Below are positions 1-56,476 of a stretch of 64,000 bases of DNA, in pieces. Position numbers and translations under genes: made by a program. Position 1 is the stretch's first letter. Each line of letters begins with the position of its first letter. This stretch comes from Acetobacteraceae bacterium (GTDB lineage Bacteria; Pseudomonadota; Alphaproteobacteria; Acetobacterales; Acetobacteraceae), in contig CBDDMJ010000009.1 in the NCBI GenBank assembly GCA_965231175.1, positions 60,496 to 124,495 on the forward strand, given 5' to 3'. The notes beneath the pieces are model-generated. The model was given only the letters and a program-made list of their open reading frames with translations. It was not told the DNA's origin and searched no databases.

Positions 1-123
1 CCGAACAACGCACAAGCCGCCGCACTGGCCACAGCCTCCGCCGCGCTGGGCGCCACCGTGGCTGATGAGCTGGTGGCCATGGCAGTGCGGTTCGTGCGGT
101 ATGTGGCGATGGCGGTAAGTTAA
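1..123 (+). CDS. 3' end of an unidentified CDS (5' part outside the window)
   Basis: Frame 1 is open from position 1 and ends ...VRFVRYVAMAVS* at TAA 121-123. Codon style is like the neighbours. No family was recognised. Confidence 0.3.
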   Translation, partial: PNNAQAAALATASAALGATVADELVAMAVRFVRYVAMAVS

Positions 124-325
124 GGAAGGAAGCACTTCTTTTTGTGAACAAAAAGAAGCAAAAAAACTTTATTAATTTGGGTTCGGGGGCGTGGTTGGTT
201 CAACGCCCATGGTCTGGCATAAAATTTATGCTGGGTCCGGGACGTTGTCCGCATCGCGGCCCATGTCCTTAAGGGGCAAAACTTTTTCGGCGCAGCTTTT
301 TTTCAAAAAAGCTGCTGCTTGCTTT
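122..325. repeat. MITE/REP-like nested palindromic intergenic element, copy E1 (long form)
   Basis: Left end is AAGGAAGGAAGCA + hairpin CTTCTTTTTGT/ACAAAAAGAAG + CAAAAAAACTTT. The interior has a GGGCGT..AACGCCC hairpin and a CTGGCATAAAATTTATGCTGG palindrome. The right end hairpin is CAGCTTTTTT/AAAAAAGCTG + CTGCTTGC. Confidence 0.8.
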
Positions 326-3317: not shown

Positions 3318-3528
3318 AGGAAGAAAGGAAGAAGGAAGTGACTTCTTTTTGTGAACAAAAAGAAGCAAAAAAACTTTATTAGTTTGGGCCTGAGACTTGG
3401 TTAGCAAAACGCCCATGGCCCAGCATAAATTTTATTCTGGGTTCGGAGGCGTTGTCTCTATCAAAGCCCCTGCCCTAGCATGGCAAAAGTTTTTTGCTTC
3501 TTTTTTTCAAAAAAGAAGTGCTTGCTGC
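3318..3528. repeat. MITE/REP-like element, copy E2 (long form)
   Basis: Same module order as E1. It has the CTTCTTTTTGT/ACAAAAAGAAG hairpin, AACGCCCATGGCCCAGCATAAATTTTATTCTGGG, and a CTTCTTTTTT/AAAAAAGAAG hairpin followed by TGCTTGC. Confidence 0.8.
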
Positions 3529-3532
3529 CCTG

Positions 3533-4267
3533 TTAAGCCGCATCCACGAGGACACGGCGGCCGGAGGGGCGGCGTTTCAGGGGGATTACGGCGTGCAGGT
3601 CTTTGCAGGCTTCGGCGACGGTCAGGCCGGCCAGTTGCGGGGCGAGGGTGGCGCCGGCGCGTTCCCAGAGGTTGAAGAGCCGCAGGTTGAACTTCCAGGT
3701 GAGCGGGGGGGTGAACAGGATGTTGTCCTGGCGTTCGACCTGGAAGAACAGGCTGGCGAGCAGGCGGGCGAGCTGGCCGGTGGAGTATGGCTGGCCGTGG
3801 CCGAAGGGGGTGGATTCCGCATAGGCCCACAGGCTGCGGCGGTTGGGGGCGATGACGATCAGCCGGCCGTCGTCTTTCAGGACGCGCCAGGCTTCGCGCA
3901 TCAGGCGGCGTGCATTGTCGGCCTGGTCCAGCGCGTGGATCAGCAGGATGCGGTCGAACGACAGGTCTGCGAAGGGCAACGCGTCTTCCTCGGCGGTGCA
4001 GGCCAGGCTGGCGCGCCCGGCTGGCCAGGGCGCCTGGCCCAGTTGCTGCGGTGACAGGGCGATGCAGCGGGCAGCCTGGCCGCGCCACAGCCGCAGGTAA
4101 GGGCCGGTATGGCCGATGCCGAGGATGGATTGCCCGGCGCCGGTGGGCCATATATCCAGCAATTGCCGGCGCAACCGTTGCGCGGTGAGAGCGCCAAGCG
4201 GTGTGCCGTAAAATTCTGCTACATCTCGTGCATCGATCGCCATACCGTCTATATACCATGAAAACAT
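3533..4267 (-). CDS. class I SAM-dependent methyltransferase
   Basis: 244 aa with ILGIGHTGPY, DRILLIHALD and LKDDGRLIVIAPNR, giving a methyltransferase type-11-like layout. It is divergent from gloB. Confidence 0.75.
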   Translation of the reverse strand: MFSWYIDGMAIDARDVAEFYGTPLGALTAQRLRRQLLDIWPTGAGQSILGIGHTGPYLRLWRGQAARCIALSPQQLGQAPWPAGRASLACTAEEDALPFADLSFDRILLIHALDQADNARRLMREAWRVLKDDGRLIVIAPNRRSLWAYAESTPFGHGQPYSTGQLARLLASLFFQVERQDNILFTPPLTWKFNLRLFNLWERAGATLAPQLAGLTVAEACKDLHAVIPLKRRPSGRRVLVDAA

Positions 4268-13432: not shown

Positions 13433-13572
13433 AAGGAAGCAGCCGCTTTTTTGAAAAAAAGCGGCGCAAAAAACTTTTTTGAATCTGGAGCCGGGGCGTT
13501 TCAAACACCGATGACCCAGATTAACAAAAGTCTTTTTGCTGCTTTTTCTTCAGAAAAAGCAGTGCTTGCTTA
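13433..13572. repeat. MITE/REP-like element, copy E3 (short form)
   Basis: AAAGGAAGCA + GCCGCTTTTTT/AAAAAAAGCGGC hairpin + GCAAAAAACTTTT ... CCCAGATTAACAAAAGTCTTTTTG + CTGCTTTTTC/GAAAAAGCAG hairpin + TGCTTGCTTA. Confidence 0.8.
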
Positions 13573-16611: not shown

Positions 16612-16845
16612 ACCAGCCTCTCAGATGAAGCCGCCGGAAACAGCCGGCAGGCAAAAGGTTACAAAACGGTCCAACGAACCAGCCACCGGAATGTCGCCAC
16701 CCCAATGCTGCCAGAACGCTTGACGTCGTTACGTAACCACGAGACTTCAAATGAGGCCGTGGCAGAGGCACGTGCGTTGCTGCGTGCGCTGGAATTACGG
16801 GCCACAACGGTAGAACGCAAGTGAATTTTGCGATTGGGTGGGGGG

Positions 16846-16995
16846 GAAGAAAGCAAGCAGTTCTTTTTTGAAAAAAAGAACCAAAAAACTTTTGCCATGC
16901 TGGACCATAGGCGTTTGCCTGACAGCGCCCAGGCCCAGACTCATAAAGTTTTTTTGCTTCTTTTTGTTCACAAAAAGAAGATACTTGCTTTGCTT
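16846..16995. repeat. MITE/REP-like element, copy E4 (short form)
   Basis: GAAGAAAGCAAGCA + GTTCTTTTTT/AAAAAAGAAC hairpin + CAAAAAACTTTT ... GGCCCAGACTCATAAAGTTTTTTTG + CTTCTTTTTGT/ACAAAAAGAAG hairpin. Confidence 0.8.
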
Positions 16996-19540
16996 ATGCT
17001 TGCTTGAACGCGGCATTCACCCAATAGCGCGGGGTTTTTTTGTAGCCGGTGTGGCAGTGGATGGTGACGGCCTGGGCCAGGGTGCGGCGGTCCAGCAGGG
17101 TGATGTGGTTCAGGAACCCGGCGGTGGCGGTGGCATAGCAGGCGGCGAAGGCGCGGGTGATCAGGCCGGGGCCGGTGGAGAGCCATAGTGTGTCGGTATC
17201 GCCGCGGTTGATGGCGGTTACGGCATCGGCCAGGGCGCGCATGATGACCGGGTGGCGCGGGATTGCGGCGATGAAGTTGTTGGCGAGGGTGCCGTGGTCT
17301 TCCTGGTATAATATCAGCTCGGCGCTGCCGAGGAGCGGGTGCAGTGATGCGGTGCAGCGGTCGTCGGCATCGGCGTAGATGCCGCCGGCCACGGCGAGCC
17401 ATGCCAGGCGGAACAGATCGGCTTTTTGTGCCGGCTCGCGGATGCGGCTGTAGGCGGCCTGGACGGCCGGGGGCGTGTGGCGGCGGAGAAATTGCTGCGC
17501 TGTGGTATCGTTGGCGATCTGCGCCCGGTAGTCCGGATTATGCTGCTGCCAGCTGCGCATCAGGGCGGCGACATCGGCGGGGATGTTTGTGGTGTCCCAG
17601 TAGTGCAGAATGGTTTTGGGAATGATTTGCGATGTTGGCGTGCTTGTATGGCTGGCCAGATACCCGGCCTCGGCGAGGGCCACCAGCAGGGTGACGGCGG
17701 CGGCTGTGCTATCCGGATTGGCGGCGACCACCGGGCGCAGGGCGGCCAGGCGGGGCTGCGGCGGCAGGGTTTGCAGTTTTTGCAGCTGCTGCACCAAAGC
17801 GGCATCCAGGCAGTAGTCATCGAGCCGTTGTCCGTAATGGTTTTGCGAGATATTGGGCGAGCGGCCTTGTAGGCGGATGGCAGGCAAGGTGAGCTGGCAG
17901 TAACGCTGCAAATGTCCGCGCGCCTCATCCAGCCGCAGCAGCATGGTGGTGAGGCGGATCAGCTCGGCCTGCACGGCCTCGTCCTGCGGATTTTGCGTCT
18001 CAGCGGCCTGGTATTGCGCCAGGGCTTCGGCAAACCGGCATTGCCGCTCCGCCAGCAGCCCCGCCATGCGCAAGCGCTGGGCGCGCTCGCCGGCGGTACT
18101 GGCCGGGGATGAGGCGAGGCAGGCTTGCACGGCAGCTGTATCGGCGGTGAGCATTTCGCTTTCGCAGGATTCCAGCCAGACGCCGAAATGGCGCGGCCAG
18201 GCGGCACGCGCGGCGCGGCCTCGGCTGAGCGCCTCTGCCAGGCGGCCGGACTGGCGCAGCAGGATCATTTCGATATGCGTGAGTTCGGGTGTGGGCGGAA
18301 ATTCCGCCCGCAGATTTCGCAACGCCGCCAGTGCCGGCTCGATCGACCCGCCATCGGCCAGAGCCCTGACCGCGCCGAGGCGGAAGGCCAGAAGCTGCGG
18401 CTGGCGTTGCGCCGCGGCCTGGTAGATTTGCAGTGCTGCCTGCGGGTTCTGCGCCAGCATCGCCTGCTCGGCCTGCTGGATGGTGATGTAACGGCAGAGC
18501 GGGTCCAGGCCTGCGGCCTGCGCCAACAACGCATCGCATTCCTGCTGCCGCCCCAGCAGACGCGCCTGCACCGCCATGTGTAGCAGGCTTTGCGCATGGG
18601 CCGGATGGCGATGATGCGCGGTGTGGAACAGCGCCAGTGCCGCCTCATGCGCGCCGGCCGCGCGCTCGATCATGCCGGCCACCGTCAGCGCATTCAGGCT
18701 GGCGGGATGTTGCCGCAATACGGCTTGCGCCGTGGCCCGGGCGGCCGTGAAATCCCCGGCGTCCCGCAGCTCATTGGCGATTTCAAGCCGGGCCCAGTCG
18801 TTCCCCGGCTCGGCGCGGTGTGCCCGTTCGAAATACGCCAGCGCGGCGGCGCGGTCTCCGGCGGCGCGCGCGCAATGGCCGAGACCGAGGCAGGCGTAGA
18901 ACTGTTCCGGCTGGTCCGCCAGAATTTCGTGATAGACCGCTGCCGCTGCGGCATGCTGCCCGGCCTCGCGCAGACCGGCGGCAATCTCCAGCCGGGCCAC
19001 CAGATTGTCGGGCTCGGCCGCCAGCGCGGCCTGGAAATGCGCCGCCGCCGCGTCGCCGTCTCCCGCCGCTCTGGCGCAGAAACCAAGGCCGATTTGCGCC
19101 AGGGCGGCATGCGCCGTTGCCAGCAGCGCCTGATAGATTGCCCGGGCTTCCACCAGCCGTCCCTGCTCGCGCCGCACGGTTGCCAGTTCCAGCCGTGGCC
19201 AGGGATTGCCGTCATCGGGCGCGCAGGCAAACCAACCTGCTGCTGCGGCAAGATCCCCGCGCGCCTTGGCGCACAGGCCGCGCCCCAGCAATGCGTAAGT
19301 CTGGTCCGGCTGGGCGGCGAGGATGGCGGCATAGGCTGCCTCCGCCTCATCAAGGCGGTTGAGGTGCCGCAGCGCCGCCCCGGCCTCCAGCCGCGCGATC
19401 AGATGATCCGGTGCCGCCTGCAAAGCGTTTTCAAAACAGGCGAGAGCGGCGGCGTGTTCATGGCGGTCCCGCGCCGCCAGGCCGAGGCTAAGATGCGCCT
19501 CGGCCGCCGCGAGGTCTTCAGGCGAAGGAGAACAGCTCAA
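16994..19540 (-). CDS. TPR-repeat protein fused to a C-terminal DXD-motif glycosyltransferase domain (Gly_transf_sug/OCH1-like)
   Basis: 848 aa. About 560 aa form Ala-rich TPR-like repeats (A..F..AL...P....A...LA). ILHYWDTTNIPADV and ADLFRLAWLAVAGGIYADADDRC follow. Confidence 0.7.
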   Translation of the reverse strand: MSCSPSPEDLAAAEAHLSLGLAARDRHEHAAALACFENALQAAPDHLIARLEAGAALRHLNRLDEAEAAYAAILAAQPDQTYALLGRGLCAKARGDLAAAAGWFACAPDDGNPWPRLELATVRREQGRLVEARAIYQALLATAHAALAQIGLGFCARAAGDGDAAAAHFQAALAAEPDNLVARLEIAAGLREAGQHAAAAAVYHEILADQPEQFYACLGLGHCARAAGDRAAALAYFERAHRAEPGNDWARLEIANELRDAGDFTAARATAQAVLRQHPASLNALTVAGMIERAAGAHEAALALFHTAHHRHPAHAQSLLHMAVQARLLGRQQECDALLAQAAGLDPLCRYITIQQAEQAMLAQNPQAALQIYQAAAQRQPQLLAFRLGAVRALADGGSIEPALAALRNLRAEFPPTPELTHIEMILLRQSGRLAEALSRGRAARAAWPRHFGVWLESCESEMLTADTAAVQACLASSPASTAGERAQRLRMAGLLAERQCRFAEALAQYQAAETQNPQDEAVQAELIRLTTMLLRLDEARGHLQRYCQLTLPAIRLQGRSPNISQNHYGQRLDDYCLDAALVQQLQKLQTLPPQPRLAALRPVVAANPDSTAAAVTLLVALAEAGYLASHTSTPTSQIIPKTILHYWDTTNIPADVAALMRSWQQHNPDYRAQIANDTTAQQFLRRHTPPAVQAAYSRIREPAQKADLFRLAWLAVAGGIYADADDRCTASLHPLLGSAELILYQEDHGTLANNFIAAIPRHPVIMRALADAVTAINRGDTDTLWLSTGPGLITRAFAACYATATAGFLNHITLLDRRTLAQAVTIHCHTGYKKTPRYWVNAAFKQA

Positions 19541-19880
19541 CGTCGAACATCAGCGTGGCGTTCGGCGGGATCGCCCCGCCCGCGCCGCGCGCGCCGTAGC
19601 CGTGTTCGGGCGGGATGATCAGCGTGCGCTTGCCGCCGACCTGCATGGTGGCGACCCCCTGATCCCACCCGGAGATCACCTGGCCGACGCCGAGCCGGAA
19701 AGCGAAGGGGCTGCCACGGTCGCGCGAGGAGTCGAATTTCTTGCCTTTGGCGCCGTTGTCGTACAGCCAGCCGGTGTAATGCACGGTGACGGTCTGGCCG
19801 GTTTTCGGGCTGTCTCCGGTTCCTACCACCTCATCCTGATACTGGATGCCTGAGGGTAGTGCTGTGAAATCTGTGCTCAT
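19518..19880 (-). CDS. FKBP-type peptidyl-prolyl cis-trans isomerase
   Basis: MSTDFTALPSGIQYQDEVVGTG...VHYTGWL..GKKFDSS..PF.F.LG.GQVI.GWD.G. The internal ATG at 19880 is preceded by GGAG. Confidence 0.85.
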   Translation of the reverse strand: MSTDFTALPSGIQYQDEVVGTGDSPKTGQTVTVHYTGWLYDNGAKGKKFDSSRDRGSPFAFRLGVGQVISGWDQGVATMQVGGKRTLIIPPEHGYGARGAGGAIPPNATLMFDVELFSFA

Positions 19881-20007
19881 GGTTCGCTCCATTGTTGACC
19901 TGGCCCCTATACCAGCCGCCATCGCCGCTGCCGAGAGCATGGGATTTACTGGAAAGCCGGTAGGTGTTGGCCTACATATGGACCGTATCAAGGATGAGGT
20001 TTCGGCC

Positions 20008-20577
20008 ATGAGCAAAATCGCCATTATCCACCATTCCGGCTATGGCCATACCCATCGCATGGCCAAGCATGTGGAAGAGGGCGTTGCCAATACCGGTGCC
20101 GATGTGCATCTCATCGCCATCAACGAGCATGGCGATATCACCGATTACGATTGGGAATTGCTCGGCAGCGCCGCCGGCATATTGTTTGGCTCCCCGACCT
20201 ATATGGGCGGGCCATCCTGGCAGTTCAAAAAATTCGCCGATGCCAGCTCCAAGCCCTGGTTCGCGCAATTATGGAAAGATAAATTCGCCGGCGGCTTTAC
20301 CAACTCCGCCACCATGAACGGCGATAAATTCTCCACCATCCAGTATTTCATCACCCTCGCCATGCAGCACTCCATGGCCTGGGTCGGCACCGGCATGATG
20401 CCCTCCAACAACAAAGCCGCCACCCGCGAATCGGTGAATTACGTCGGCGGGTTCGCCGGCGCCCTGGCGCAATCCCCGGCGGATGCCTCGCCGGATGAAA
20501 TGATCCAGGGCGATCTGCAAACCGCGATAAAATTCGGCGAGCGCTTTGCGCGGTTTGTGGCGGTGCATGGGAAGTAA
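20008..20577 (+). CDS. flavodoxin-like fold NAD(P)H:quinone oxidoreductase (WrbA-like)
   Basis: MSKIAIIHHSGYGHTHRMAK..., GSPTYMGGPSWQFKKF. The start was chosen at the internal ATG; the upstream part of the ORF is antisense to FKBP. Confidence 0.75.
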   Translation: MSKIAIIHHSGYGHTHRMAKHVEEGVANTGADVHLIAINEHGDITDYDWELLGSAAGILFGSPTYMGGPSWQFKKFADASSKPWFAQLWKDKFAGGFTNSATMNGDKFSTIQYFITLAMQHSMAWVGTGMMPSNNKAATRESVNYVGGFAGALAQSPADASPDEMIQGDLQTAIKFGERFARFVAVHGK

Positions 20578-20720
20578 GGCAGAAAGCAAGCACTGCTTTT
20601 TTGAAAAAAAGCAGCAAAAAACTTTTATGAGTTTTAAGCCGGGCGTTTCAAACACCAATGGCCCAGATTAACAAAAGTCTTTTTGCTGCTTTTTCTTCAG
20701 AAAAAGCAGTGCTTCCTTAC
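20576..20720. repeat. MITE/REP-like element, copy E5 (short form)
   Basis: AAGGCAGAAAGCAAGCA + CTGCTTTTTT/AAAAAAAGCAG ... GGCCCAGATTAACAAAAGTCTTTTTG + CTGCTTTTTC/GAAAAAGCAG + TGCTTCCTTAC. It starts inside the TAA stop at 20575-20577. Confidence 0.8.
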
Positions 20721-24422: not shown

Positions 24423-26502
<2,080 letters not shown>

Positions 26503-26504
<2 letters not shown>

Positions 26505-26709
26505 GGCAGAAAATAAGTTCTGCTTTTTTGAAAAAAAGCAGCAAAAAACTTTTGAATGCTGGGGCATGGGCGTGATGCGGACAACGCCTTTGAACCAGCA
26601 GAAATTTTATGCCGGGGCAGGGGCGTTCGGCGGACAACGCCCCTGGCCCAGATTCATAAAGTTTTTTTGCTTCTTTTTTGTTCACAAAAAAGAAGTGCTT
26701 TCTGCCTTG
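26503..26709. repeat. MITE/REP-like element, copy E6 (long form)
   Basis: It starts in the EF-G TAA stop. CTGCTTTTTT/AAAAAAAGCAG hairpin, two GGGCGT..AACGCC hairpins flanking CCAGCAGAAATTTTATGCCGG, then CTTCTTTTTTGT/ACAAAAAAGAAG. Confidence 0.8.
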
Positions 26710-28444: not shown

Positions 28445-28565
28445 TTGATCTTCTCAAAAAAAGCAAAAAACTTCATGAGTCTGGGCCTTCGATCAAACGC
28501 CTCGGGCCGTGCATAAATTTCTCTGATGGTTCCAGGCTGTCCGCTTTACGCCCAGCCCCTTAAGT
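28445..28565. repeat. degenerate MITE/REP-like element, copy E7
   Basis: AAAAAAGCAAAAAACTTCATGAGTCTGGGCC..AAACGCCTCGGGCCGTGCATAAATTT retains internal modules. Both terminal hairpins are eroded. Confidence 0.5.
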
Positions 28566-28589
28566 TTTATTAACAATAAATTGGTTTCG

Positions 28590-29879
28590 TTAGTCGGCGA
28601 ACGGGTCCTGCATCAGGATCGTATCGTCGCGTTCCGGGCTGGTGGACAGCAGCGTGACCGGGGCTTCCACCAGTTCCTCGATGCGTTTGACGTATTTGAT
28701 GGCCGGCGCCGGCAGGTCCGCCCAGCTGCGGGCGCCGCGGGTTGAGCCGGACCAGCCTTCCATCACCTCGTAGACTGGTTTGGCGGCGGCCTGGGCGGCC
28801 ATGCCGGCCGGCAGATGGGTGTAGCGCTTGCCTTTGATCTCGAAGCCGACGCCGACTTTGAGTTCGGTCATGCCGTCCAGCACGTCGAGCTTGGTGAGTG
28901 CGAGGCCGTTGATGCCGCCGACCTTGACCGCCTGGCGGACCAGGGCGGCGTCGAACCAGCCGCAGCGGCGTTTGCGCCCGGTGACGGTGCCGAATTCATG
29001 GCCGCGTTCGCCGAGCATACGCCCGGTATCGTCGAATAATTCGGTCGGGAACGGCCCGGACCCGACGCGGGTGCAATAGGCTTTGGCGATGCCCAGCACC
29101 CGCCCGACGGCATCCGGCCCGACGCCGGCGCCGGCGGCGGCGGTGCCTGCCACGGTGTTGGAGGAGGTGACGAACGGGTAGGTGCCGTGATCCACATCCA
29201 GCATCACCGCCTGCGCGCCTTCGAACAATATCCGCGCGCCGGCTTTGCGGGCGGCCGACAGCCGCTCCCATACCGGCTCGGCGAACGGCAGCAATTGCGG
29301 CGCCAGCGCCAGCAGGTCGCGCAGCAGATCCGCCTTGTCGAATACCGGCGCGCCGAGGCCGGCGAGCAGCGTATTGTGATGCAGCAGCAATTCGTCGAGC
29401 TTGGCGGTCAGCGTTTCCGGCTCGGCGAGGTCGCAGACGCGGATCGCGCGCCTGGCCACCTTGTCCTCATAGGCCGGGCCGATGCCGCGCCCGGTGGTGC
29501 CGATTTTATGCTCGCCGCGCGCGGCCTCGCGGGCGGAATCCAGGGCCGCATGCAGCGGCAGGATCAGCGGGGCGTTATCGGCGATCCGCAGGGTTTCCGG
29601 CGTTATGTGCAGGCCCTGCGCCTGCACGCGGGCGATCTCCGCCAGCAGCGCCACCGGGTCTATCACCACGCCGTTGCCGATGATGCCGAGCTTGCCGCGC
29701 ACCAGGCCGGAGGGCAGCAGCGAGAGTTTATAGGTCTGGTTGCCCACCACCAAAGTGTGCCCGGCATTATGGCCGCCCTGGAAGCGCACCACGATATCGG
29801 CCCGGCTGGCCAGCCAATCGACCACCTTGCCTTTGCCCTCATCGCCCCATTGCGCGCCGATAATGGTGACATTGCTCAT
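28590..29879 (-). CDS. purA: adenylosuccinate synthase
   Basis: [21 protein letters not shown]..., 429 aa. The ATG at 29879-29877 overlaps the hisZ TGA (ATGA). The 94-aa N-terminal extension in the ORF track is not PurA-like. Confidence 0.9.
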
Positions 29880-32532: not shown

Positions 32533-33515
32533 AACGCCTGACGATCCTGGCGGTCTGCTCGTTCCTGCTGTATGGCATGGTGTTCGGATTTATCCTGGAC
32601 CGGCCATTGTCTTTAGGATTATTGCAGCTCGAGATGCAGCAGAAAACGGCGCGGCTGGCGCGGCTGCCGGCGCGCAAACTGGTGATCCTCGCCGGCTCGA
32701 ACGGGCCGTACTCGCATTCATGCCAGGTGATCGGCGCCATGCTGAGCCTGGCCTGCGAAAACGCCGGGATCGCCGTCGGCATCGGGCTCGACGATATCTT
32801 CATGCAATATGCTTCGTATTTGCATAAAGGCGATATCGTCTACATGCCGATGGAGACCGCGCAATATGTCACGACCCGGGCGCAGAACCGCAGCGATGCG
32901 GATGGCGGCATATTGCTGCGCTACGACCGCGCCCGGTTGATGCAGCTGCCGCCGGACCGCAGCATCGGCGCGCTGTTCTGCTGCAATCTCAGCGATTTTC
33001 TGGAATCCCTGGCCGAGATGCCGATCGCGCAGGCAGGGTTGATCAAACCCCAGGCCTTGCTTGCCACGGAGTATAACGAAGAGGGCGATCGCATCGGCGC
33101 CGTGTTGGCGAGTGCCGATAAATCATTGCTCAACCGGCCGGCGCGTCCGGCACCGGATGCCAAAGCCATTACCGCCGGCTATGGCGCCCAGCTGATCGCC
33201 GCCTTCGTGGCAAGCGAAACCGCGCGCGGCGTTATCGTCATCGGCGGCCTGCCGACCGATTTCACCGACGCCGCCCTACCGCCGCAAACCATCCAGGCCA
33301 TCAGTGATATCTACACAAAAAACGGCGGCAGATTCATGGTACTGGCAAATCACAGCCATTATCCGCGCGAAGATTTCTACGACAGCGAGGATCATCTGGC
33401 GCAGCCTTATCAATATATACATTCGGTGGCGGTGGCGAACATGTTGAAGCAAGCAGTTCTTTTTGTGAAAAAAAAGAACCAAAAAAACTTTGCCATGCTG
33501 GGGCATGGGACGTGA
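32529..33515 (+). CDS. hypothetical membrane-anchored protein coupled to the MBOAT gene
   Basis: The TTG start overlaps the MBOAT TGA (TTGA). It has an N-terminal TM helix MKRLTILAVCSFLLYGMVFGFIL. The last ~22 codons (KQAVLFVKKKNQKNFAMLGHGT*) are encoded by repeat copy E8. Confidence 0.5.
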   Translation: MKRLTILAVCSFLLYGMVFGFILDRPLSLGLLQLEMQQKTARLARLPARKLVILAGSNGPYSHSCQVIGAMLSLACENAGIAVGIGLDDIFMQYASYLHKGDIVYMPMETAQYVTTRAQNRSDADGGILLRYDRARLMQLPPDRSIGALFCCNLSDFLESLAEMPIAQAGLIKPQALLATEYNEEGDRIGAVLASADKSLLNRPARPAPDAKAITAGYGAQLIAAFVASETARGVIVIGGLPTDFTDAALPPQTIQAISDIYTKNGGRFMVLANHSHYPREDFYDSEDHLAQPYQYIHSVAVANMLKQAVLFVKKKNQKNFAMLGHGT

Positions 33516-33645
33516 TGATGACAGCGCCTCCGGACCCAGAATAAAATTTATGCTGGGCCATGGGCGTTTGGTTGCTAACGCCCATGGCCCAGACTCATAA
33601 AGTTTTTTTGCTTCTTTTTGTTCACAAAAAGAAGATACTTCCTCC
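33446..33645. repeat. MITE/REP-like element, copy E8 (long form)
   Basis: GAAGCAAGCA + GTTCTTTTT../..AAAAGAAC hairpin, CCCAGAATAAAATTTATGCTGGG palindrome, GGGCGTTTGGTTGCTAACGCCC hairpin, GGCCCAGACTCATAAAGTTTTTTTG + CTTCTTTTTGT/ACAAAAAGAAG. Confidence 0.8.
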
Positions 33646-35094: not shown

Positions 35095-35241
35095 AAGGAA
35101 GTAAGCGCTTCTTTTTTGAAAAAAAGAAGCAAAAAACTTTTACTCCTTGGGGACATGGGTTGTGATGTCGACAACGCCTCCGCCCCAGACTCATAAAGTT
35201 TTTTTGCTTCTTTTTGTTCACAAAAAGAAGTGCTTCCTTTC
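35095..35241. repeat. MITE/REP-like element, copy E9 (short form)
   Basis: AAGGAAGTAAGCG + CTTCTTTTTT/AAAAAAGAAG + CAAAAAACTTTT ... CCCCAGACTCATAAAGTTTTTTTG + CTTCTTTTTGT/ACAAAAAGAAG + TGCTTCCTTT. Confidence 0.8.
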
Positions 35242-41177: not shown

Positions 41178-41250
41178 GCAGCAAGCAGCAGCTTTTTTGT
41201 AAAAAAGCTGCGCAAAAAACTTTTGCTCCTTGGGGCATGGGCGGTGGTGC
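41178..41250. repeat. half MITE/REP-like element, copy E10
   Basis: GCAGCAAGCAG + CAGCTTTTTT/AAAAAAGCTG hairpin + CGCAAAAAACTTTTGCTCCTTGGGGCATGGGCG. The second half is absent. Confidence 0.5.
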
Positions 41251-48860: not shown

Positions 48861-49066
48861 AAAGGAAGCAGCCGCTTTTTTGAAAAAAAGCGGCGCAAAA
48901 AACTTTTGCCATTGAAGGCAAGGGCGTGATTCCGGCAACGCCCCCGAACCCAGGGTAAAATTAATGCTGGAGCATGGGCGCTGGCAATGACAACGCCCCA
49001 GCCCCAGATTCACAAAAGTTTTTTTGCTGCTTTTTTTTCAAAAAAAGCAGTGCTTTCTTGCCTTGC
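48861..49066. repeat. MITE/REP-like element, copy E11 (long form)
   Basis: AAAGGAAGCA + GCCGCTTTTTT/AAAAAAAGCGGC, GGGCGTGATTCCGGCAACGCCC, CCCAGGGTAAAATTAATGCTGG, GGGCGCTGGCAATGACAACGCCC, CTGCTTTTTTTT/AAAAAAAGCAG. Confidence 0.8.
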
Positions 49067-50778: not shown

Positions 50779-50918
50779 AGAGGAAGTAGCCGCTTTTTTG
50801 AAAAAAAGCGGCGCAAAAAACTTTCATAAGTCAGGAGCCGGGAGTTTTTAACGCCATTGGCCCAGATTAATAGAAGTCTTTTTGCTGCTTTTTCTTCAGA
50901 AAAAGCAGTGCTTCCTTA
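50779..50918. repeat. MITE/REP-like element, copy E12 (short form)
   Basis: AGAGGAAGTA + GCCGCTTTTTT/AAAAAAAGCGGC ... GGCCCAGATTAATAGAAGTCTTTTTG + CTGCTTTTTC/GAAAAAGCAG + TGCTTCCTTAT. Confidence 0.8.
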
Positions 50919-51878: not shown

Positions 51879-52661
51879 ATGGCCAGCCTCAGTATCGAGC
51901 GCGTTTCGATCTCCTTTCCGCTGTATCACGGCGAAAGCCGCAGCCTGAAGAAAACCGTGTTCGCCGCCGCCTCCGGCCGGCTCGGCGAGGACCGCCGCCA
52001 CCGCCTGGTGGTGCAGGCGCTGCGCGATGTTTCCTTCACGCTGAACAGCGGTGACCGCCTTGGCTTTATCGGCTCCAACGGCGCCGGCAAAACCACGCTG
52101 CTGCGCGCCATGGCCGGTATCTACGAGCCGGTGGAAGGCCATATCCAGATCAACGGCGCCGTCACCGCCCTGCTGGACCCCGGGCAGGGCATGAACCTCG
52201 AACTCACAGGACGCGAAAACATCCGCCTGCGCGGCCTGTTCAACGGCCTCAACCCGGCACAGATTGCCCAGTTGATCGACGACGTCGCGGAATTCGCCGA
52301 GCTGGCCCAGTTCATGGACTTGCCGGTGCGAATGTACAGCTCCGGCATGGTGGTCCGCCTCGGCTTCGCCCTGGCCACCGCCACCAAACCGCAAGTCCTG
52401 CTGATGGACGAATGGATCCTCGCCGGCGACGCCAGCTTCATGGACAAAGCCCGCAACCGGCTGGAAACCATGGTCCGCGGCGCCGAGATCCTGGTGCTGT
52501 CGTCGCACTCGGCCGATATCATCATGAAATGGTGCAACCGCGTGATCTGGATGGACGGCGGTGAAATCCGCGCCGATGGAGCACCGGACGACGTCCTCTC
52601 CGCCTATCTGACGCCGGATCAATTCGCGCTGGCCAAGGCGACGTTGAAGGTGGTGGCTTAA
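51879..52661 (+). CDS. ABC polysaccharide export ATP-binding protein (Wzt/KpsT-like)
   Basis: MASLSIERVSISFPLY.. with Walker A GSNGAGKTT, signature YSSGMVVRL and Walker B VLLMDEW. Confidence 0.85.
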   Translation: MASLSIERVSISFPLYHGESRSLKKTVFAAASGRLGEDRRHRLVVQALRDVSFTLNSGDRLGFIGSNGAGKTTLLRAMAGIYEPVEGHIQINGAVTALLDPGQGMNLELTGRENIRLRGLFNGLNPAQIAQLIDDVAEFAELAQFMDLPVRMYSSGMVVRLGFALATATKPQVLLMDEWILAGDASFMDKARNRLETMVRGAEILVLSSHSADIIMKWCNRVIWMDGGEIRADGAPDDVLSAYLTPDQFALAKATLKVVA

Positions 52662-52909
52662 GACAAGGAAGCACTTCTTTTTGTGAACAAAAAGAAGCAA
52701 AAAACTTTATGAGTCTGGGCCTGGGGCGGAGCGGCCAAGGTTGCGTATGCGAAGCGTATGGAATGCCGCGGAGGGGTGGTCCGCCAAACGCCTCATGATC
52801 CGGTATAAATTTCTGCTGGGTACTGGGCGTTGTCTGCATCCCGCCCCATGCCCCAGAAGAATCAAAAGTTTTTTGCTGCTTTTTTTCAAAAAAGCAGTGC
52901 TTGCTTTAC
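52659..52909. repeat. MITE/REP-like element, copy E13 (longest form, extra internal insert)
   Basis: It starts in the TAA stop at 52659-52661. CTTCTTTTTGT/ACAAAAAGAAG, ATGAGTCTGGGCC, an extra ~50-nt insert containing GCGTATGCGAAGCGTATGG, a CCGGTATAAATTTCTGCTGGG module, then CTGCTTTTTTT/AAAAAAGCAG + TGCTTGC. Confidence 0.8.
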
Positions 52910-56336: not shown

Positions 56337-56476
56337 TAAGGAAGCACTGCTTTTTCTGAAGAAAAAGCAGCAAAAAGACTTTTATTAATCTGGGCCATTG
56401 GCGTTTAAAATTCCCGGCTTCGGACTCAAAGAAGTTTTTTGCGCCGCTTTTTTTCAAAAAGCGGCTGCTTTCTTTG
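56337..56476. repeat. MITE/REP-like element, copy E14 (short form, inverted relative to E3/E5/E12)
   Basis: GTAAGGAAGCA + CTGCTTTTTC/GAAAAAGCAG + CAAAAAGACTTTTATTAATCTGGGCC ... AAGTTTTTTGC + GCCGCTTTTTTT/AAAAAGCGGC + TGCTTTC. Confidence 0.8.

What the first reader, a model, noticed from the sequence alone, without database searches (positions are those of the whole stretch)
131..160. Compensatory base changes preserve the terminal hairpins across copies
The G/C clamp of the terminal stem differs between copies, but both arms always change together:
- CTTC...GAAG (E1, E2, E4, E6, E8, E9, E13);
- CTGC...GCAG (E3, E5, E6, E11, E12, E13, E14);
- CAGC...GCTG (E1, E10);
- GCCGC...GCGGC (E3, E11, E12, E14);
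- GTTC...GAAC (E4, E8).

The flanking GGAAGCA and CAAAAAACTTT stay constant. Covariation indicates selection on a DNA or RNA secondary structure. That could be a recognition hairpin for a mobilising enzyme, or an RNA stability/processing signal. The coordinates given are the example in copy E1.
Basis: seen in the sequence. Interest (0 to 1): 0.65.

Follow-up and report, generated by a model that had tools for sequence, protein, structure and literature searches.

The report
Self-folding hairpin ends of Acetobacteraceae repeats
The paired base changes are real and highly non-random: each end of a very abundant, apparently undescribed gene-end repeat of the Acetobacteraceae is a hairpin kept intact by selection, and the run of A's beside it changes with the hairpin in a mirror pattern that points to a three-stranded fold.

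Summary
Observation confirmed.

- **Scale.** In 251 modules from about 98 related loci, collected without any demand on the clamp, the four clamp pairs are 94-97% Watson-Crick. At least 12 complementary clamp variants occur.
- **Significance.** Covariation is far above shuffled and slid controls. It also survives a tree-aware test: 11 and 6 same-branch double changes against 0.65 and 0.36 expected.
- **Unit under constraint.** The local hairpin is constrained, not the long left-right stem. The two ends of one element usually carry different hairpins (54 of 67).
- **New result.** The flank CAAAAAACTTT is not constant. Its purine run is a mirror copy of the 3' arm in length and in G position (339 of 375 modules, four samples). 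Neither copying nor Watson-Crick pairing explains this. An intrastrand triple helix does.

The elements belong to the REP/BIME/MITE kind. They sit at gene 3' ends (24 convergent, 28 tandem, 3 divergent) and no published description was found. Function (RNA 3'-end structure or single-strand DNA recognition site) remains undecided.

The parts
135..158 (+). E1 left hairpin CTTC-T5-GTGAAC-A5-GAAG. The module spans 125-170 and the flank is C-A7-C.
293..316 (-). E1 right hairpin GCAGC-T6-G-A7-GCTGC. The flank is degenerate (CCGAAAAAG).
3342..3365 (+). E2 left hairpin CTTC-T5-GTGAAC-A5-GAAG, flank A7
3497..3518 (-). E2 right hairpin CTTC-T6-G-A7-GAAG, flank A6
13442..13465 (+). E3 left hairpin GCCGC-T6-G-A7-GCGGC, flank GC-A6
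13539..13562 (-). E3 right hairpin CTGC-T5-CTGAAG-A5-GCAG, flank A5GA (mirror of AGA5)
16860..16881 (+). E4 left hairpin GTTC-T6-G-A7-GAAC, flank A6. This is the family-wide 'A end'.
16957..16980 (-). E4 right hairpin CTTC-T5-GTGAAC-A5-GAAG, flank A7
20593..20614 (+). E5 left hairpin CTGC-T6-G-A7-GCAG, flank A6
20686..20709 (-). E5 right hairpin CTGC-T5-CTGAAG-A5-GCAG, flank A5GA
26520..26541 (+). E6 left hairpin CTGC-T6-G-A7-GCAG, flank A6
26670..26695 (-). E6 right hairpin CTTC-T6-GTGAAC-A6-GAAG, flank A7. One of the two exceptions to the length rule in the window.
33456..33479 (+). E8 left hairpin GTTC-T5-GTG-A8-GAAC, with one apical mismatch; flank A7
33611..33634 (-). E8 right hairpin CTTC-T5-GTGAAC-A5-GAAG, flank A7
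35107..35130 (+). E9 left hairpin (G)CTTC-T6-G-A7-GAAG(C), flank A6
35207..35230 (-). E9 right hairpin CTTC-T5-GTGAAC-A5-GAAG, flank A7
41188..41211 (+). E10 hairpin GCAGC-T6-GT-A6-GCTGC, flank GC-A6. This is a half element with no right end.
48871..48894 (+). E11 left hairpin GCCGC-T6-G-A7-GCGGC, flank GC-A6
49027..49050 (-). E11 right hairpin CTGC-T7-G-A8-GCAG, flank A7. All three runs are one base longer.
50789..50812 (+). E12 left hairpin GCCGC-T6-G-A7-GCGGC, flank GC-A6
50885..50908 (-). E12 right hairpin CTGC-T5-CTGAAG-A5-GCAG, flank A5GA
52674..52697 (+). E13 left hairpin CTTC-T5-GTGAAC-A5-GAAG, flank A6 (exception to the length rule). The orthologous site in L238 carries a CCGC-type module.
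52876..52897 (-). E13 right hairpin CTGC-T6-G-A7-GCAG, flank A6
56347..56370 (+). E14 left hairpin CTGC-T5-CTGAAG-A5-GCAG, flank A5GA
56443..56465 (-). E14 right hairpin GCCGC-T5-G-A7-GCGGC, flank GC-A6

Best explanation
Each end of the repeat is a self-folding single-strand module.

**The fold.** The 22-26-nt perfect palindrome folds into a hairpin. It has an A/T-only upper stem around a fixed GA centre and is closed by a 4-5-bp clamp that holds the only G:C pairs.

**Why both arms change together.** Copies are propagated or retained only while this local hairpin is intact. Variation therefore shows up as changes on both arms, or as equal lengthening of the T-run and the A-run. Lineages mutated on one arm stay rare.

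**The third segment.** The purine run that follows the hairpin (C-An-C) is a mirror image of the 3' arm and changes with it. The simplest reading concerns the strand that reads out of the element, 5'-Tn-G-clamp-Tn-TC-An-clamp-TGCTTCC. There the outer T-run lies as a Hoogsteen third strand on the A/T stem, forming T.A-T, C+.G-C and T.C-G triplets. This is the architecture of 'potential intrastrand triplex' motifs.

**Proposed function.** My best guess is that the fold works in transcripts at gene ends. Each element carries one module per direction. In the outgoing direction the reinforced hairpin is followed by UGCUUCCUU, which gives a two-way terminator or 3'-end protecting structure. The same fold is probably also what the unknown spreading machinery recognises.

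**Shown versus inferred.** Shown: the covariation, the local nature of the fold, the mirror rule, the gene-end location, and the family-wide conservation. Inferred: the triplex, and RNA as the acting molecule.

**My odds.**

| Claim | Probability |
|---|---|
| Hairpin under structural constraint | 0.9 |
| Third strand real | 0.45 |
| RNA gene-end role | 0.35 |
For: **Clamp pairing.**
- Clamp pairs are 94-97% Watson-Crick in 251 modules harvested without reference to the clamp. States at the variable pairs are TA 181/GC 36/CG 12/AT 11, TA 215/CG 23/AT 5, and CG 138/GC 95.
- At least 12 complementary clamp variants occur, whereas one-arm variants are singletons.

**Tool counts.**
- A2: covariation 0.244 against 0.069 +/- 0.007 in shuffles (0/500); slid registers reach at most 0.07.
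- A3: 8-pair hairpin 96% paired, covariation 0.437 against 0.122 (0/500).

**Tree-aware test.** 11 and 6 same-branch double changes against 0.65 and 0.36 expected.

**Local fold, not the long stem.** Left and right hairpins of one element differ in 54 of 67 elements. Identical clamps are rarer than random pairing would give (13 against 19.9).

**Mirror rule.**
- Obeyed in 339 of 375 modules across the window, genomes, metagenomes and viral contigs.
- The G offset is mirrored in 69 of 69 cases.
- Arm and flank lengths correlate with Spearman 0.89.
- Parallel arm-flank 'pairs': 9 cells changed on both sides against 0.9 in shuffles (0/500).

**Orthologous sites.**
- L078/L082 show T5/A5/A5GA against T6/A6/A6GA.
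- Distant orthologues differ only by compensated changes or by swaps of the whole hairpin type. Single-arm hits are seen only between close relatives.

**Conservation and position.**
- Terminal modules are conserved across genera while interiors are not.
- Gene context of full elements: 24 convergent, 28 tandem, 3 divergent.
- In the outgoing orientation the modules score as terminator-like.
- The modules occur in metatranscriptome contigs.
Against: - **No usable RNA end data.** The runs found hold only assembled contigs, and these break at the repeat.
- **Weak terminator features.** Stems are A/U-rich and weak as RNA (-7 to -16 kcal/mol; z-scores 0.2 to -2.6). The tail UGCUUCCUU is a poor U-tract.
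- **Competing fold.** A full-length transcript is predicted to prefer the long left-right hairpin (-62 kcal/mol).
- **No orientation preference.** Solo modules show none relative to neighbouring genes (19 against 13). The end-type bias is not significant.
- **No strand signal.** There is no G.U-over-A.C excess that would name a transcribed strand.
- **Steric problem.** A paired clamp and a third strand in mirror register are joined by one nucleotide only. They may be alternative states rather than one structure; this is my own geometric reasoning and was not modelled.
- **Sequence conservation.** Near-invariance of the A-end sequence across genera suggests a sequence-reading protein rather than a generic terminator.
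- **Non-independent counts.** Module-level counts are not phylogenetically independent.
Confidence: 0.45

Rival explanations
1. The hairpins, with their flanking motifs, are single-strand DNA recognition structures for the enzyme that mobilises the element. This would resemble the subterminal hairpins of IS200/IS605-type elements or REP sequences read by RAYT transposases. Only copies with an intact fold are copied, so every successful subfamily is self-complementary.
For: - High copy number: about one per 4 kb in the window.
- Conserved ends with species-specific interiors.
- Two different ends per element, giving a polarity like left and right transposon ends.
- No target-site duplication, as in IS200/IS605.
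- Different module types at orthologous sites, implying turnover.
- Presence on viral contigs.
- No strand asymmetry of wobble mismatches.
Against: - No transposase was found. The long module-to-module intervals hold ordinary genes.
- The defining REP heads GTAG/CGTC are absent.
- Orthologous copies persist between species whose coding flanks are only 74-83% identical.
Confidence: 0.3
2. The structure acts in double-stranded DNA. The perfect, AT-centred palindrome extrudes as a cruciform, and the adjacent mirror repeat forms H-DNA. At the ends of converging genes this would absorb supercoils or bind a nucleoid or topoisomerase protein, as proposed for REP/BIME elements.
For: - The layout of an inverted repeat plus a homopurine mirror repeat is the classical requirement for cruciform and H-DNA.
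- Enrichment between convergent genes.
- Symmetry with respect to strand.
Against: - There is no direct evidence.
- H-DNA alone would not need the 5' arm, and a cruciform alone would not need the mirror flank, so two separate constraints must be assumed.
- Short 22-26-bp palindromes extrude poorly in vivo (my own knowledge).
Confidence: 0.12
3. There is no selection on function. Palindromes correct themselves by intrastrand template switching during replication, so a change in one arm is either reverted or copied to the other arm.
For: - Perfect complementarity with very few intermediates.
- Symmetric length changes of the T- and A-runs, which slippage plus template switching could yield.
Against: - Template switching yields inverted copies. 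It cannot yield the mirror-image flank, which follows the arm in 339 of 375 modules.
- The asymmetric GA centre is kept in 191 of 227 modules.
- The two ends keep distinct hairpin types across genera.
- Modules are as conserved as the coding flanks while interiors decay: 80%, 81% and 65% identity.
Confidence: 0.08
4. The apparent covariation is only descent from a few subfamilies, or the selected structure is the long hairpin formed by the left and right ends of the whole element.
For: - Clamp type correlates with apex type and flank within a genome.
- The whole element folds into a long hairpin in silico.
- The C:G/G:C flip of the outermost clamp pair is largely one old split between the two end types.
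Against: - Same-branch double changes are 11 and 6 against 0.65 and 0.36 expected, on a tree built from the same columns.
- At least 12 complementary clamp variants are combined with several apex types.
- The result is replicated in samples picked by other criteria.
- The ends of one element differ in 54 of 67 elements, so the long stem is mismatched exactly where the local stems are perfect.
Confidence: 0.05

Closest known systems
REP / BIME elements and REPIN-RAYT systems (Enterobacteria, Pseudomonas, Stenotrophomonas; Di Nocera et al. 2013, PMC3733652)
   Same: These are short, extragenic, very abundant palindromes placed after genes, often between convergent genes. They show mosaic or modular organisation with two palindrome types in inverted orientation (like BIME Y and Z units), and the stems stay complementary.
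   Different: - There is no GTAG or CGTC head. PMC3733652 states that CGTC repeats are missing from Acetobacteraceae.
- The stems are A/T-rich inside a GC-rich genome.
- The end sequence is conserved across a whole family instead of being species-specific.
- The mirror-repeat flank has no REP counterpart.
Potential intrastrand triplex (PIT) motifs / TM-ECO = BoxC of E. coli (Holder et al. 2015, PMC4666352, which cites Hoyne et al. 2000)
   Same: The order of segments on one strand is the same: pyrimidine stem, short loop, purine stem, loop, mirror purine stem. The motif is dispersed, intergenic and multi-copy.
   Different: - TM-ECO is G/C-rich (CCCTCNCCC...GGGNGAGGG N3 GGGNGAGGG). This module is almost pure A/T.
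- Here the second loop is itself Watson-Crick paired to four bases upstream (the clamp).
- Here the motif is the end-piece of a larger inverted-repeat element.
- Triplex formation is shown in vitro for TM-ECO but is not shown here.
- That paper found A/T-rich candidates mostly explainable by chance, whereas here covariation supports the motif.
Bacterial MITEs with structured ends (Correia/NEMIS of Neisseria, ERIC, pneumococcal BOX, Rickettsia RPE)
   Same: Size is 120-250 bp. They are non-coding, with inverted ends and a variable or modular interior. They are tolerated at gene ends and co-transcribed with genes.
   Different: - No target-site duplication was detected.
- No autonomous parent was found.
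- Each end is itself a perfect local palindrome, and the two ends differ.
Intrinsic (rho-independent) bidirectional terminators
   Same: A hairpin lies directly after stop codons and is followed, in the outgoing direction, by a pyrimidine/U-rich tail. The two-way arrangement sits between convergent genes. The consensus scan flags several modules.
   Different: - The stem is A/U-rich with G:C only at its foot, which is the reverse of the usual design.
- The U-tract is interrupted.
- The sequence is conserved among hundreds of copies and across genera, which ordinary terminators are not.
RNA triple-helix 3'-end stabilisers (ENE of PAN RNA, MALAT1 triple helix; from my own knowledge, not checked in the library)
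   Same: The order on the outgoing strand is a U-run (Hoogsteen), a U-run (Watson-Crick) and an A-run near the 3' end. This would give U.A-U triplets.
   Different: - These are known from eukaryotes, their viruses and transposons, not from bacteria.
- There the A-tract is the very 3' end.
- There is no evidence here that the RNA ends at the module.

Membership tests
REP / REPIN-RAYT | Conserved GTAG (or CGTC) tetranucleotide at the head of the palindrome | tested here: not met
   Heads are (A-R-G-N)n purine tracts. CTAC...GTAG clamps occur in only 5 of 251 modules. PMC3733652 reports no CGTC repeats in Acetobacteraceae.
REP / REPIN-RAYT | A RAYT (IS200/IS605-like Y1 transposase) gene in the genome, flanked by the repeats | not testable with these tools
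No transposase was seen between distant module pairs.
REP / REPIN-RAYT | Two near-identical palindromes in inverted orientation that form one long hairpin (REPIN) | tested here: not met
   The two hairpins of one element differ in 54 of 67 elements. Whole hairpins are identical in only 4.
MITE (DDE-transposase type) | Terminal inverted repeats | tested here: met
   Both ends carry the same module in inverted orientation. The inverted repeats are imperfect because the end types differ.
MITE (DDE-transposase type) | Target-site duplication | tested here: not met
   The longest direct repeat between own flanks averages 4.73, against 4.64 for flanks of other elements.
MITE (DDE-transposase type) | An autonomous element with the same ends | tested here: inconclusive
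   None was found in about 0.9 Mb of loci. Whole genomes could not be searched.
Potential intrastrand triplex motif (PIT / ITxF type) | Pyrimidine stem, loop of 1-6, purine stem, loop of 1-6, and a mirror purine stem of at least 6 nt with AAT/GGC-compatible triplets | tested here: met
   Stems are 5-8 nt and loops are 2 nt and 5-7 nt. The mirror rule holds in 339 of 375 modules.
Potential intrastrand triplex motif (PIT / ITxF type) | Triplex actually forms (CD, NMR, footprinting) | not testable with these tools
   This needs wet-lab biophysics. Only three-way covariation is available.
TM-ECO / BoxC | Consensus CCCTCNCCC N3-6 GGGNGAGGG N3 GGGNGAGGG | tested here: not met
   The module is A/T-rich and has no similarity to that consensus.
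Intrinsic terminator | Stable G+C-rich stem directly followed by a U-tract | tested here: inconclusive
   Several modules in the outgoing orientation pass the lax consensus scan. However, the stems are A/U-rich (-7 to -16 kcal/mol) and the tail is UGCUUCCUU.
Any Rfam family | Match at the gathering score | tested here: not met
   There were 0 matches in the window. Only sub-threshold generic hairpin matches appeared at E <= 1.

The most novel reading that the evidence does not exclude
The end module is a naturally selected A/T-rich intramolecular triple helix: T.A-T or U.A-U triplets, with C+.G-C and T.C-G at the variant positions. It alternates with, or is locked by, a Watson-Crick clamp. It is kept in hundreds of copies per genome throughout the Acetobacteraceae and their phages. 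If it acts in RNA, it would be a bacterial counterpart of the triple-helix 3'-end protectors known from eukaryotic and viral RNAs. Because C+.G-C triplets need protonation, it might respond to the unusually acidic cytoplasm of this family.
Probability: 0.3. Interest if true: 0.85.

Novelty: new variant of a known kind. Interest (0 to 1): 0.62.

Why it matters
Small palindromic repeats fill much of the non-coding DNA of many bacteria, yet it is rarely clear which part of them is under selection, or at what level. This family gives an unusually clean answer.

- **Where the constraint lies.** It sits on each local end hairpin, not on the whole-element stem. It extends to a third segment in a pattern that only a parallel or mirror interaction (a triple helix) explains.
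- **Why that is unusual.** As far as I know, covariation support for an intramolecular triplex in a natural bacterial element has not been reported. Triplex motifs in bacteria have so far rested on sequence pattern and in-vitro folding (PMC4666352).
- **Annotation.** Stop codons commonly lie inside the element's terminal tract, assemblies break at the element, and it occurs at roughly one copy per 4 kb.
- **Testability.** It offers a testable candidate for how transcripts end in GC-rich Acetobacteraceae, which include the industrial acetic acid bacteria.

Tried and rejected
No genome-wide alignment of the window's own genome and no search for a partner gene could be made. I used 98 GC-rich loci of genome contigs plus metagenome and viral loci instead.

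**RNA evidence**
- No RNA run of the organism exists.
- Metatranscriptome contigs of an Acidiphilium relative contain the modules but break at them, so they say nothing about 3' ends.

**Orthologous comparisons**
- Metagenome contigs of relatives (X3-X5) also break at every element.
- Neighbourhoods of WrbA homologues were not syntenic and carried no element.
- A flank-based search gave 13 orthologous module pairs.

**Databases and literature**
- Rfam gave nothing.
- Searches by family name, genus and literal sequence found no description.

**Structural alternatives rejected**
- *Alternative antiparallel hairpin between the 5' arm and the flank.* It needs a different register for each type, predicts A5GC after CTGC clamps where A5GA is observed, and cannot explain A7 after the GTGAAC type.
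- *Flank as a direct repeat of the arm.* The G offsets do not match: 1 against 4-6.
- *Palindromic operator for a dimeric protein.* Covarying half-sites are not expected under that model.
- *IS5-like YTAR target.* The apparent TTAA/CTAA/CTAG next to the elements are the stop codons inside the A-R-G-N tract, and no duplication is present.

**Strand assignment**
- A wobble-asymmetry test for the transcribed strand found none: about 8 G.T against about 7 A.C.
Full report
**What is at the coordinates.**
- Window 131-160 is AGCACTTCTTTTTGTGAACAAAAAGAAGCA. The perfect palindrome CTTCTTTTTGTGAACAAAAAGAAG lies at 135-158, directly after a TAA stop at 121-123.
- It is the left end of the first of about 14 copies of a modular intergenic repeat in the window.
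- Each full copy has three parts:
  - a terminal module, made of a purine tract, an A/T-rich perfect hairpin closed by a 4-5-bp clamp, and then C-An-C-TTT;
  - one or two G+C-rich internal hairpins;
  - the same kind of module inverted.
- I located 25 terminal hairpins.
- The hairpin-plus-flank pattern occurs 19 times against 0.00 in shuffles.
- Rfam has no family for it.

**Where the family occurs.**
Most hits were Acetobacteraceae or Rhodospirillales, including Acidiphilium rubrum, Acidocella, Roseomonas, Rhodovastum, Rhodovarius, Gluconacetobacter tumulicola and many bog and soil MAGs.
- The A+T-rich Firmicutes and Bacteroidetes hits are a different matter and were excluded by G+C content.
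- The family also appears in metagenome contigs and on IMG/VR viral contigs.
- I found no published description.
- Earlier notes of this scan had met the same family in other genomes and also found none.

**Is the covariation more than chance or descent?**
- I harvested modules by anchoring only on the T-run, the A-run and a downstream A-run, with no demand on the clamp.
- In 251 modules the four clamp pairs are 97, 96, 97 and 94% Watson-Crick although three of them are polymorphic: TA 181/GC 36/CG 12/AT 11; TA 215/CG 23/AT 5; CG 138/GC 95.
- At least twelve complementary 4-bp clamps exist (CTTC 92, GTTC 79, CCGC 18, CTGC 14, GTCC 11, CTAC 5 and others). Variants changed on one arm only are singletons.
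- For the tool counts I built gapless pseudo-alignments from real segments anchored on the runs. A2 takes 12 nt 5' of the T-run, the first three T, the last three A and 14 nt 3'. A3 adds the apex.

| Alignment | Covariation score | Shuffles | Best slid register | Other |
|---|---|---|---|---|
| A2 | 0.244 | 0.069 +/- 0.007 (0 of 500 reach it) | 0.07 | 106 cells changed on both sides against 32.6 |
| A3, 8-pair hairpin | 0.437 | 0.122 | 0.125 | 96% paired against 78.9%; six of eight pairs changed on both sides |

This is conservative, because the tree then groups sequences by stem type.
- I placed changes by parsimony. The two most variable pairs change on the same branch 11 and 6 times, where 0.65 and 0.36 are expected.
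- Descent of a few subfamilies therefore does not explain the pattern.
- One caveat applies. The C:G/G:C flip of the outermost pair is largely one old split between the two end types described below.

**Which structure is constrained?**
- A whole element is predicted to fold as one long hairpin, with the left end pairing the right end (-62 kcal/mol).
- That is not where the covariation lies. Among 67 elements with two intact clamps, the two hairpins differ in 54. Identical clamps are rarer than random pairing predicts (13 against 19.9 +/- 3.2). Whole hairpins are identical in only 4.
- Typically one end is GTTC-T6-GA-A6-GAAC, almost invariant across genera. The other is CTTC with an interrupted apex (CTGAAG, GTGAAC or CGAG).
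- In the window the same polarity appears as an uninterrupted T6/A6 end paired with a CTGAAG or GTGAAC end in 10 of 12 full copies.
- So each local hairpin is the unit, and the element has two distinct ends.

**The flank is not constant: a three-way rule.**

| Hairpin inner arms | Flank that follows |
|---|---|
| T6-GA-A6 | C-A6-C |
| T5-GA-A5 | C-A5-C |
| T7-GA-A7 | C-A7-C |
| T5CT-GA-AGA5 | C-A5GA-C |
| T4CT-GA-AGA4 | C-A4GA-C |
| T6CT-GA-AGA6 | C-A6GA-C |
| T5C-GA-GA5 | C-A5G-C |
| T5GT-GA-ACA5 | C-A7-C |

- The flank is thus the mirror image of the 3' arm, with A placed opposite the arm's C.
- Over four samples the rule holds in 339 of 375 modules:

| Sample | Modules | Obey the rule |
|---|---|---|
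| Window | 24 | 22 |
| Genomes | 193 | 174 |
| Metagenomes | 120 | 110 |
| Viral contigs | 38 | 33 |

- It holds in 143 of 170 modules when the commonest arm is left out.
- A G in the arm goes with a G in the flank (69/3/6/297). Its offset is mirrored in 69 of 69 cases and never matches a direct repeat.
- Arm and flank lengths correlate with Spearman 0.89.
- The metagenome hairpins were picked by the hairpin alone, so that sample is unbiased for the flank.
- Written as parallel 'pairs' between the 5' arm and the flank, the tool finds 9 cells changed on both sides against 0.9 in shuffles (0 of 500). This involves only two variable columns, and one slid register scores as high because it lands on the clamp.
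- At an orthologous site, L078 has T5/A5/A5GA and L082 has T6/A6/A6GA.
- A mirror repeat can arise neither by slippage (which gives a direct copy) nor by template switching (which gives an inverted copy). It also cannot pair antiparallel with the 5' arm. That alternative needs a different register for each type, predicts A5GC after CTGC clamps, and cannot explain A7.
- The arrangement is pyrimidine stem, loop, purine stem, loop, mirror purine stem. This is the definition of a potential intrastrand triplex (PMC4666352).
- On the complementary, outgoing strand the triplets would be T.A-T, C+.G-C and T.C-G. From my own knowledge these are the accepted pyrimidine-motif triplets, including the best natural answer to a C-G inversion.
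- I regard the triplex as the best available reading of the three-way rule, not as shown.
- By my own geometric reasoning, a paired clamp and a mirror-register third strand joined by a single base are hard to have at once. They may be alternative states.

**Context and evolution.**
- Full elements lie between convergent genes 24 times, between tandem genes 28 times and between divergent genes 3 times. In the window the counts are 8, 6 and 0.
- 63% of module outer sides face a gene's 3' end (121 against 70, p = 3e-4). The stop is usually 8-20 nt before the clamp, that is, inside the conserved (A-R-G-N)x3 tract.
- There is no target-site duplication.
- Solo modules show no orientation preference.
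- There are 13 orthologous module pairs.
  - Close relatives show single-arm hits (L009/L045, L264/L275).
  - Distant ones differ by compensated changes or by a different, internally consistent module type at the same site (window E13L against L238; L269 against L301; L327 against L262).
  - For the 11 pairs with flank identity below 97%, mean identity is 80% for modules, 81% for the coding flanks and 65% for element interiors.
- This argues for constraint or homogenisation plus turnover, on small numbers.

**What it does.**
- In the outgoing orientation a module is a hairpin followed by TGCTTCCTT, and it passes a lax terminator scan.
- Each element presents one such module to transcripts from either side. 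Several elements fill the whole space between two converging stop codons (E5: 20578-20720).
- I therefore favour a gene-end RNA structure, either a terminator or a 3'-end protector, carried by a repeat that spreads or once spread.
- This choice is weak for several reasons:
  - the stems are A/U-rich;
  - the tail is a poor U-tract;
  - no wobble asymmetry marks a strand;
  - the near-invariant A-end sequence suggests a sequence-reading protein.
- Recognition of the folded single-stranded DNA by a mobilising enzyme is nearly as likely. A double-strand cruciform/H-DNA role cannot be excluded.
- RNA data that could decide are not available.

**Verdict.**
- The element belongs to the familiar REP/BIME/MITE kind but fails the defining tests of REP (head motif, REPIN symmetry) and of classical MITEs (target duplication).
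- Its end module is an A/T-rich, clamp-closed version of the intrastrand-triplex architecture.
- I rate it a new variant of a known kind.

Noticed in passing
window 121-123, 20575-20577, 26502-26504, 52659-52661 and others; loci: Stop codons of flanking genes lie inside the element's conserved terminal tract (A-R-G-N)x3, as T-A-A-G in phase with the 4-nt period. The commonest stop-to-clamp distances are 8 and 12 nt. Some reading frames run on to the TGA formed at the hairpin centre (distance -12/-13). The element seems to supply gene stops.
   Followed up: partly
window E4 16850-16990, E8 33446-33644; loci aligned: Elements have a polarity. One end is GTTC-T6-GA-A6-GAAC-C-A6-CTTTT, nearly invariant across genera. 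The other end is CTTC with an interrupted apex (CTGAAG, GTGAAC or CGAG). Interiors are species-specific.
   Followed up: partly
L116 (1824, 4958, 5122, minus strand), L002, L027, L063: Ruminococcus and other Clostridia MAGs carry their own repeated module with the same layout: clamp-T5/6-G-A6/7-clamp-(A)C-A5/6-CTTTT, preceded by TGCCCCTGAACCCCAC. This may be an analogous hairpin-plus-A-run design in an unrelated phylum.
   Followed up: no
L245-L360, GC-rich ones (e.g. L263, L280, L301, L327): 18 of 20 GC-rich IMG/VR viral contigs fetched carry several modules of the family, so phages or prophages of these hosts hold it too.
   Followed up: partly
window 28445-28590 (E7) and 41179-41250 (E10): E7 is a decayed copy that keeps the flank (GCAAAAAACTTC) and the internal modules but has lost the 5' hairpin. 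E10 is a half element with no right end.
   Followed up: no
L019 2172-2240, L028 7509, L118 2513: In some genomes the purine tract is replaced by a second, overlapping A/T hairpin (for example TTTTTTCAAAAAGAAGTTCTTTTTTGAAAAAAAGAAC). This gives nested or tandem hairpins.
   Followed up: no
window 3336-4002 and 16676-17342: Metagenome contigs of relatives pile up to thousands-fold summed depth on the terminal modules and break there. The repeat fragments short-read assemblies of these organisms.
   Followed up: no
window flank positions -1 and -6 relative to the clamp: At the variable positions of the purine tract, the left and right ends of the same element agree more often than ends of different elements (0.46 against 0.28). 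This hints at some long-range pairing or shared ancestry of the two ends.
   Followed up: no
window 19846-20577: The gene left of E5 is a WrbA-type flavodoxin (PF03358). Its real product is about 189 aa (P0001), shorter than the 243-aa ORF listed. Homologues in relatives sit in other neighbourhoods without an element.
   Followed up: partly
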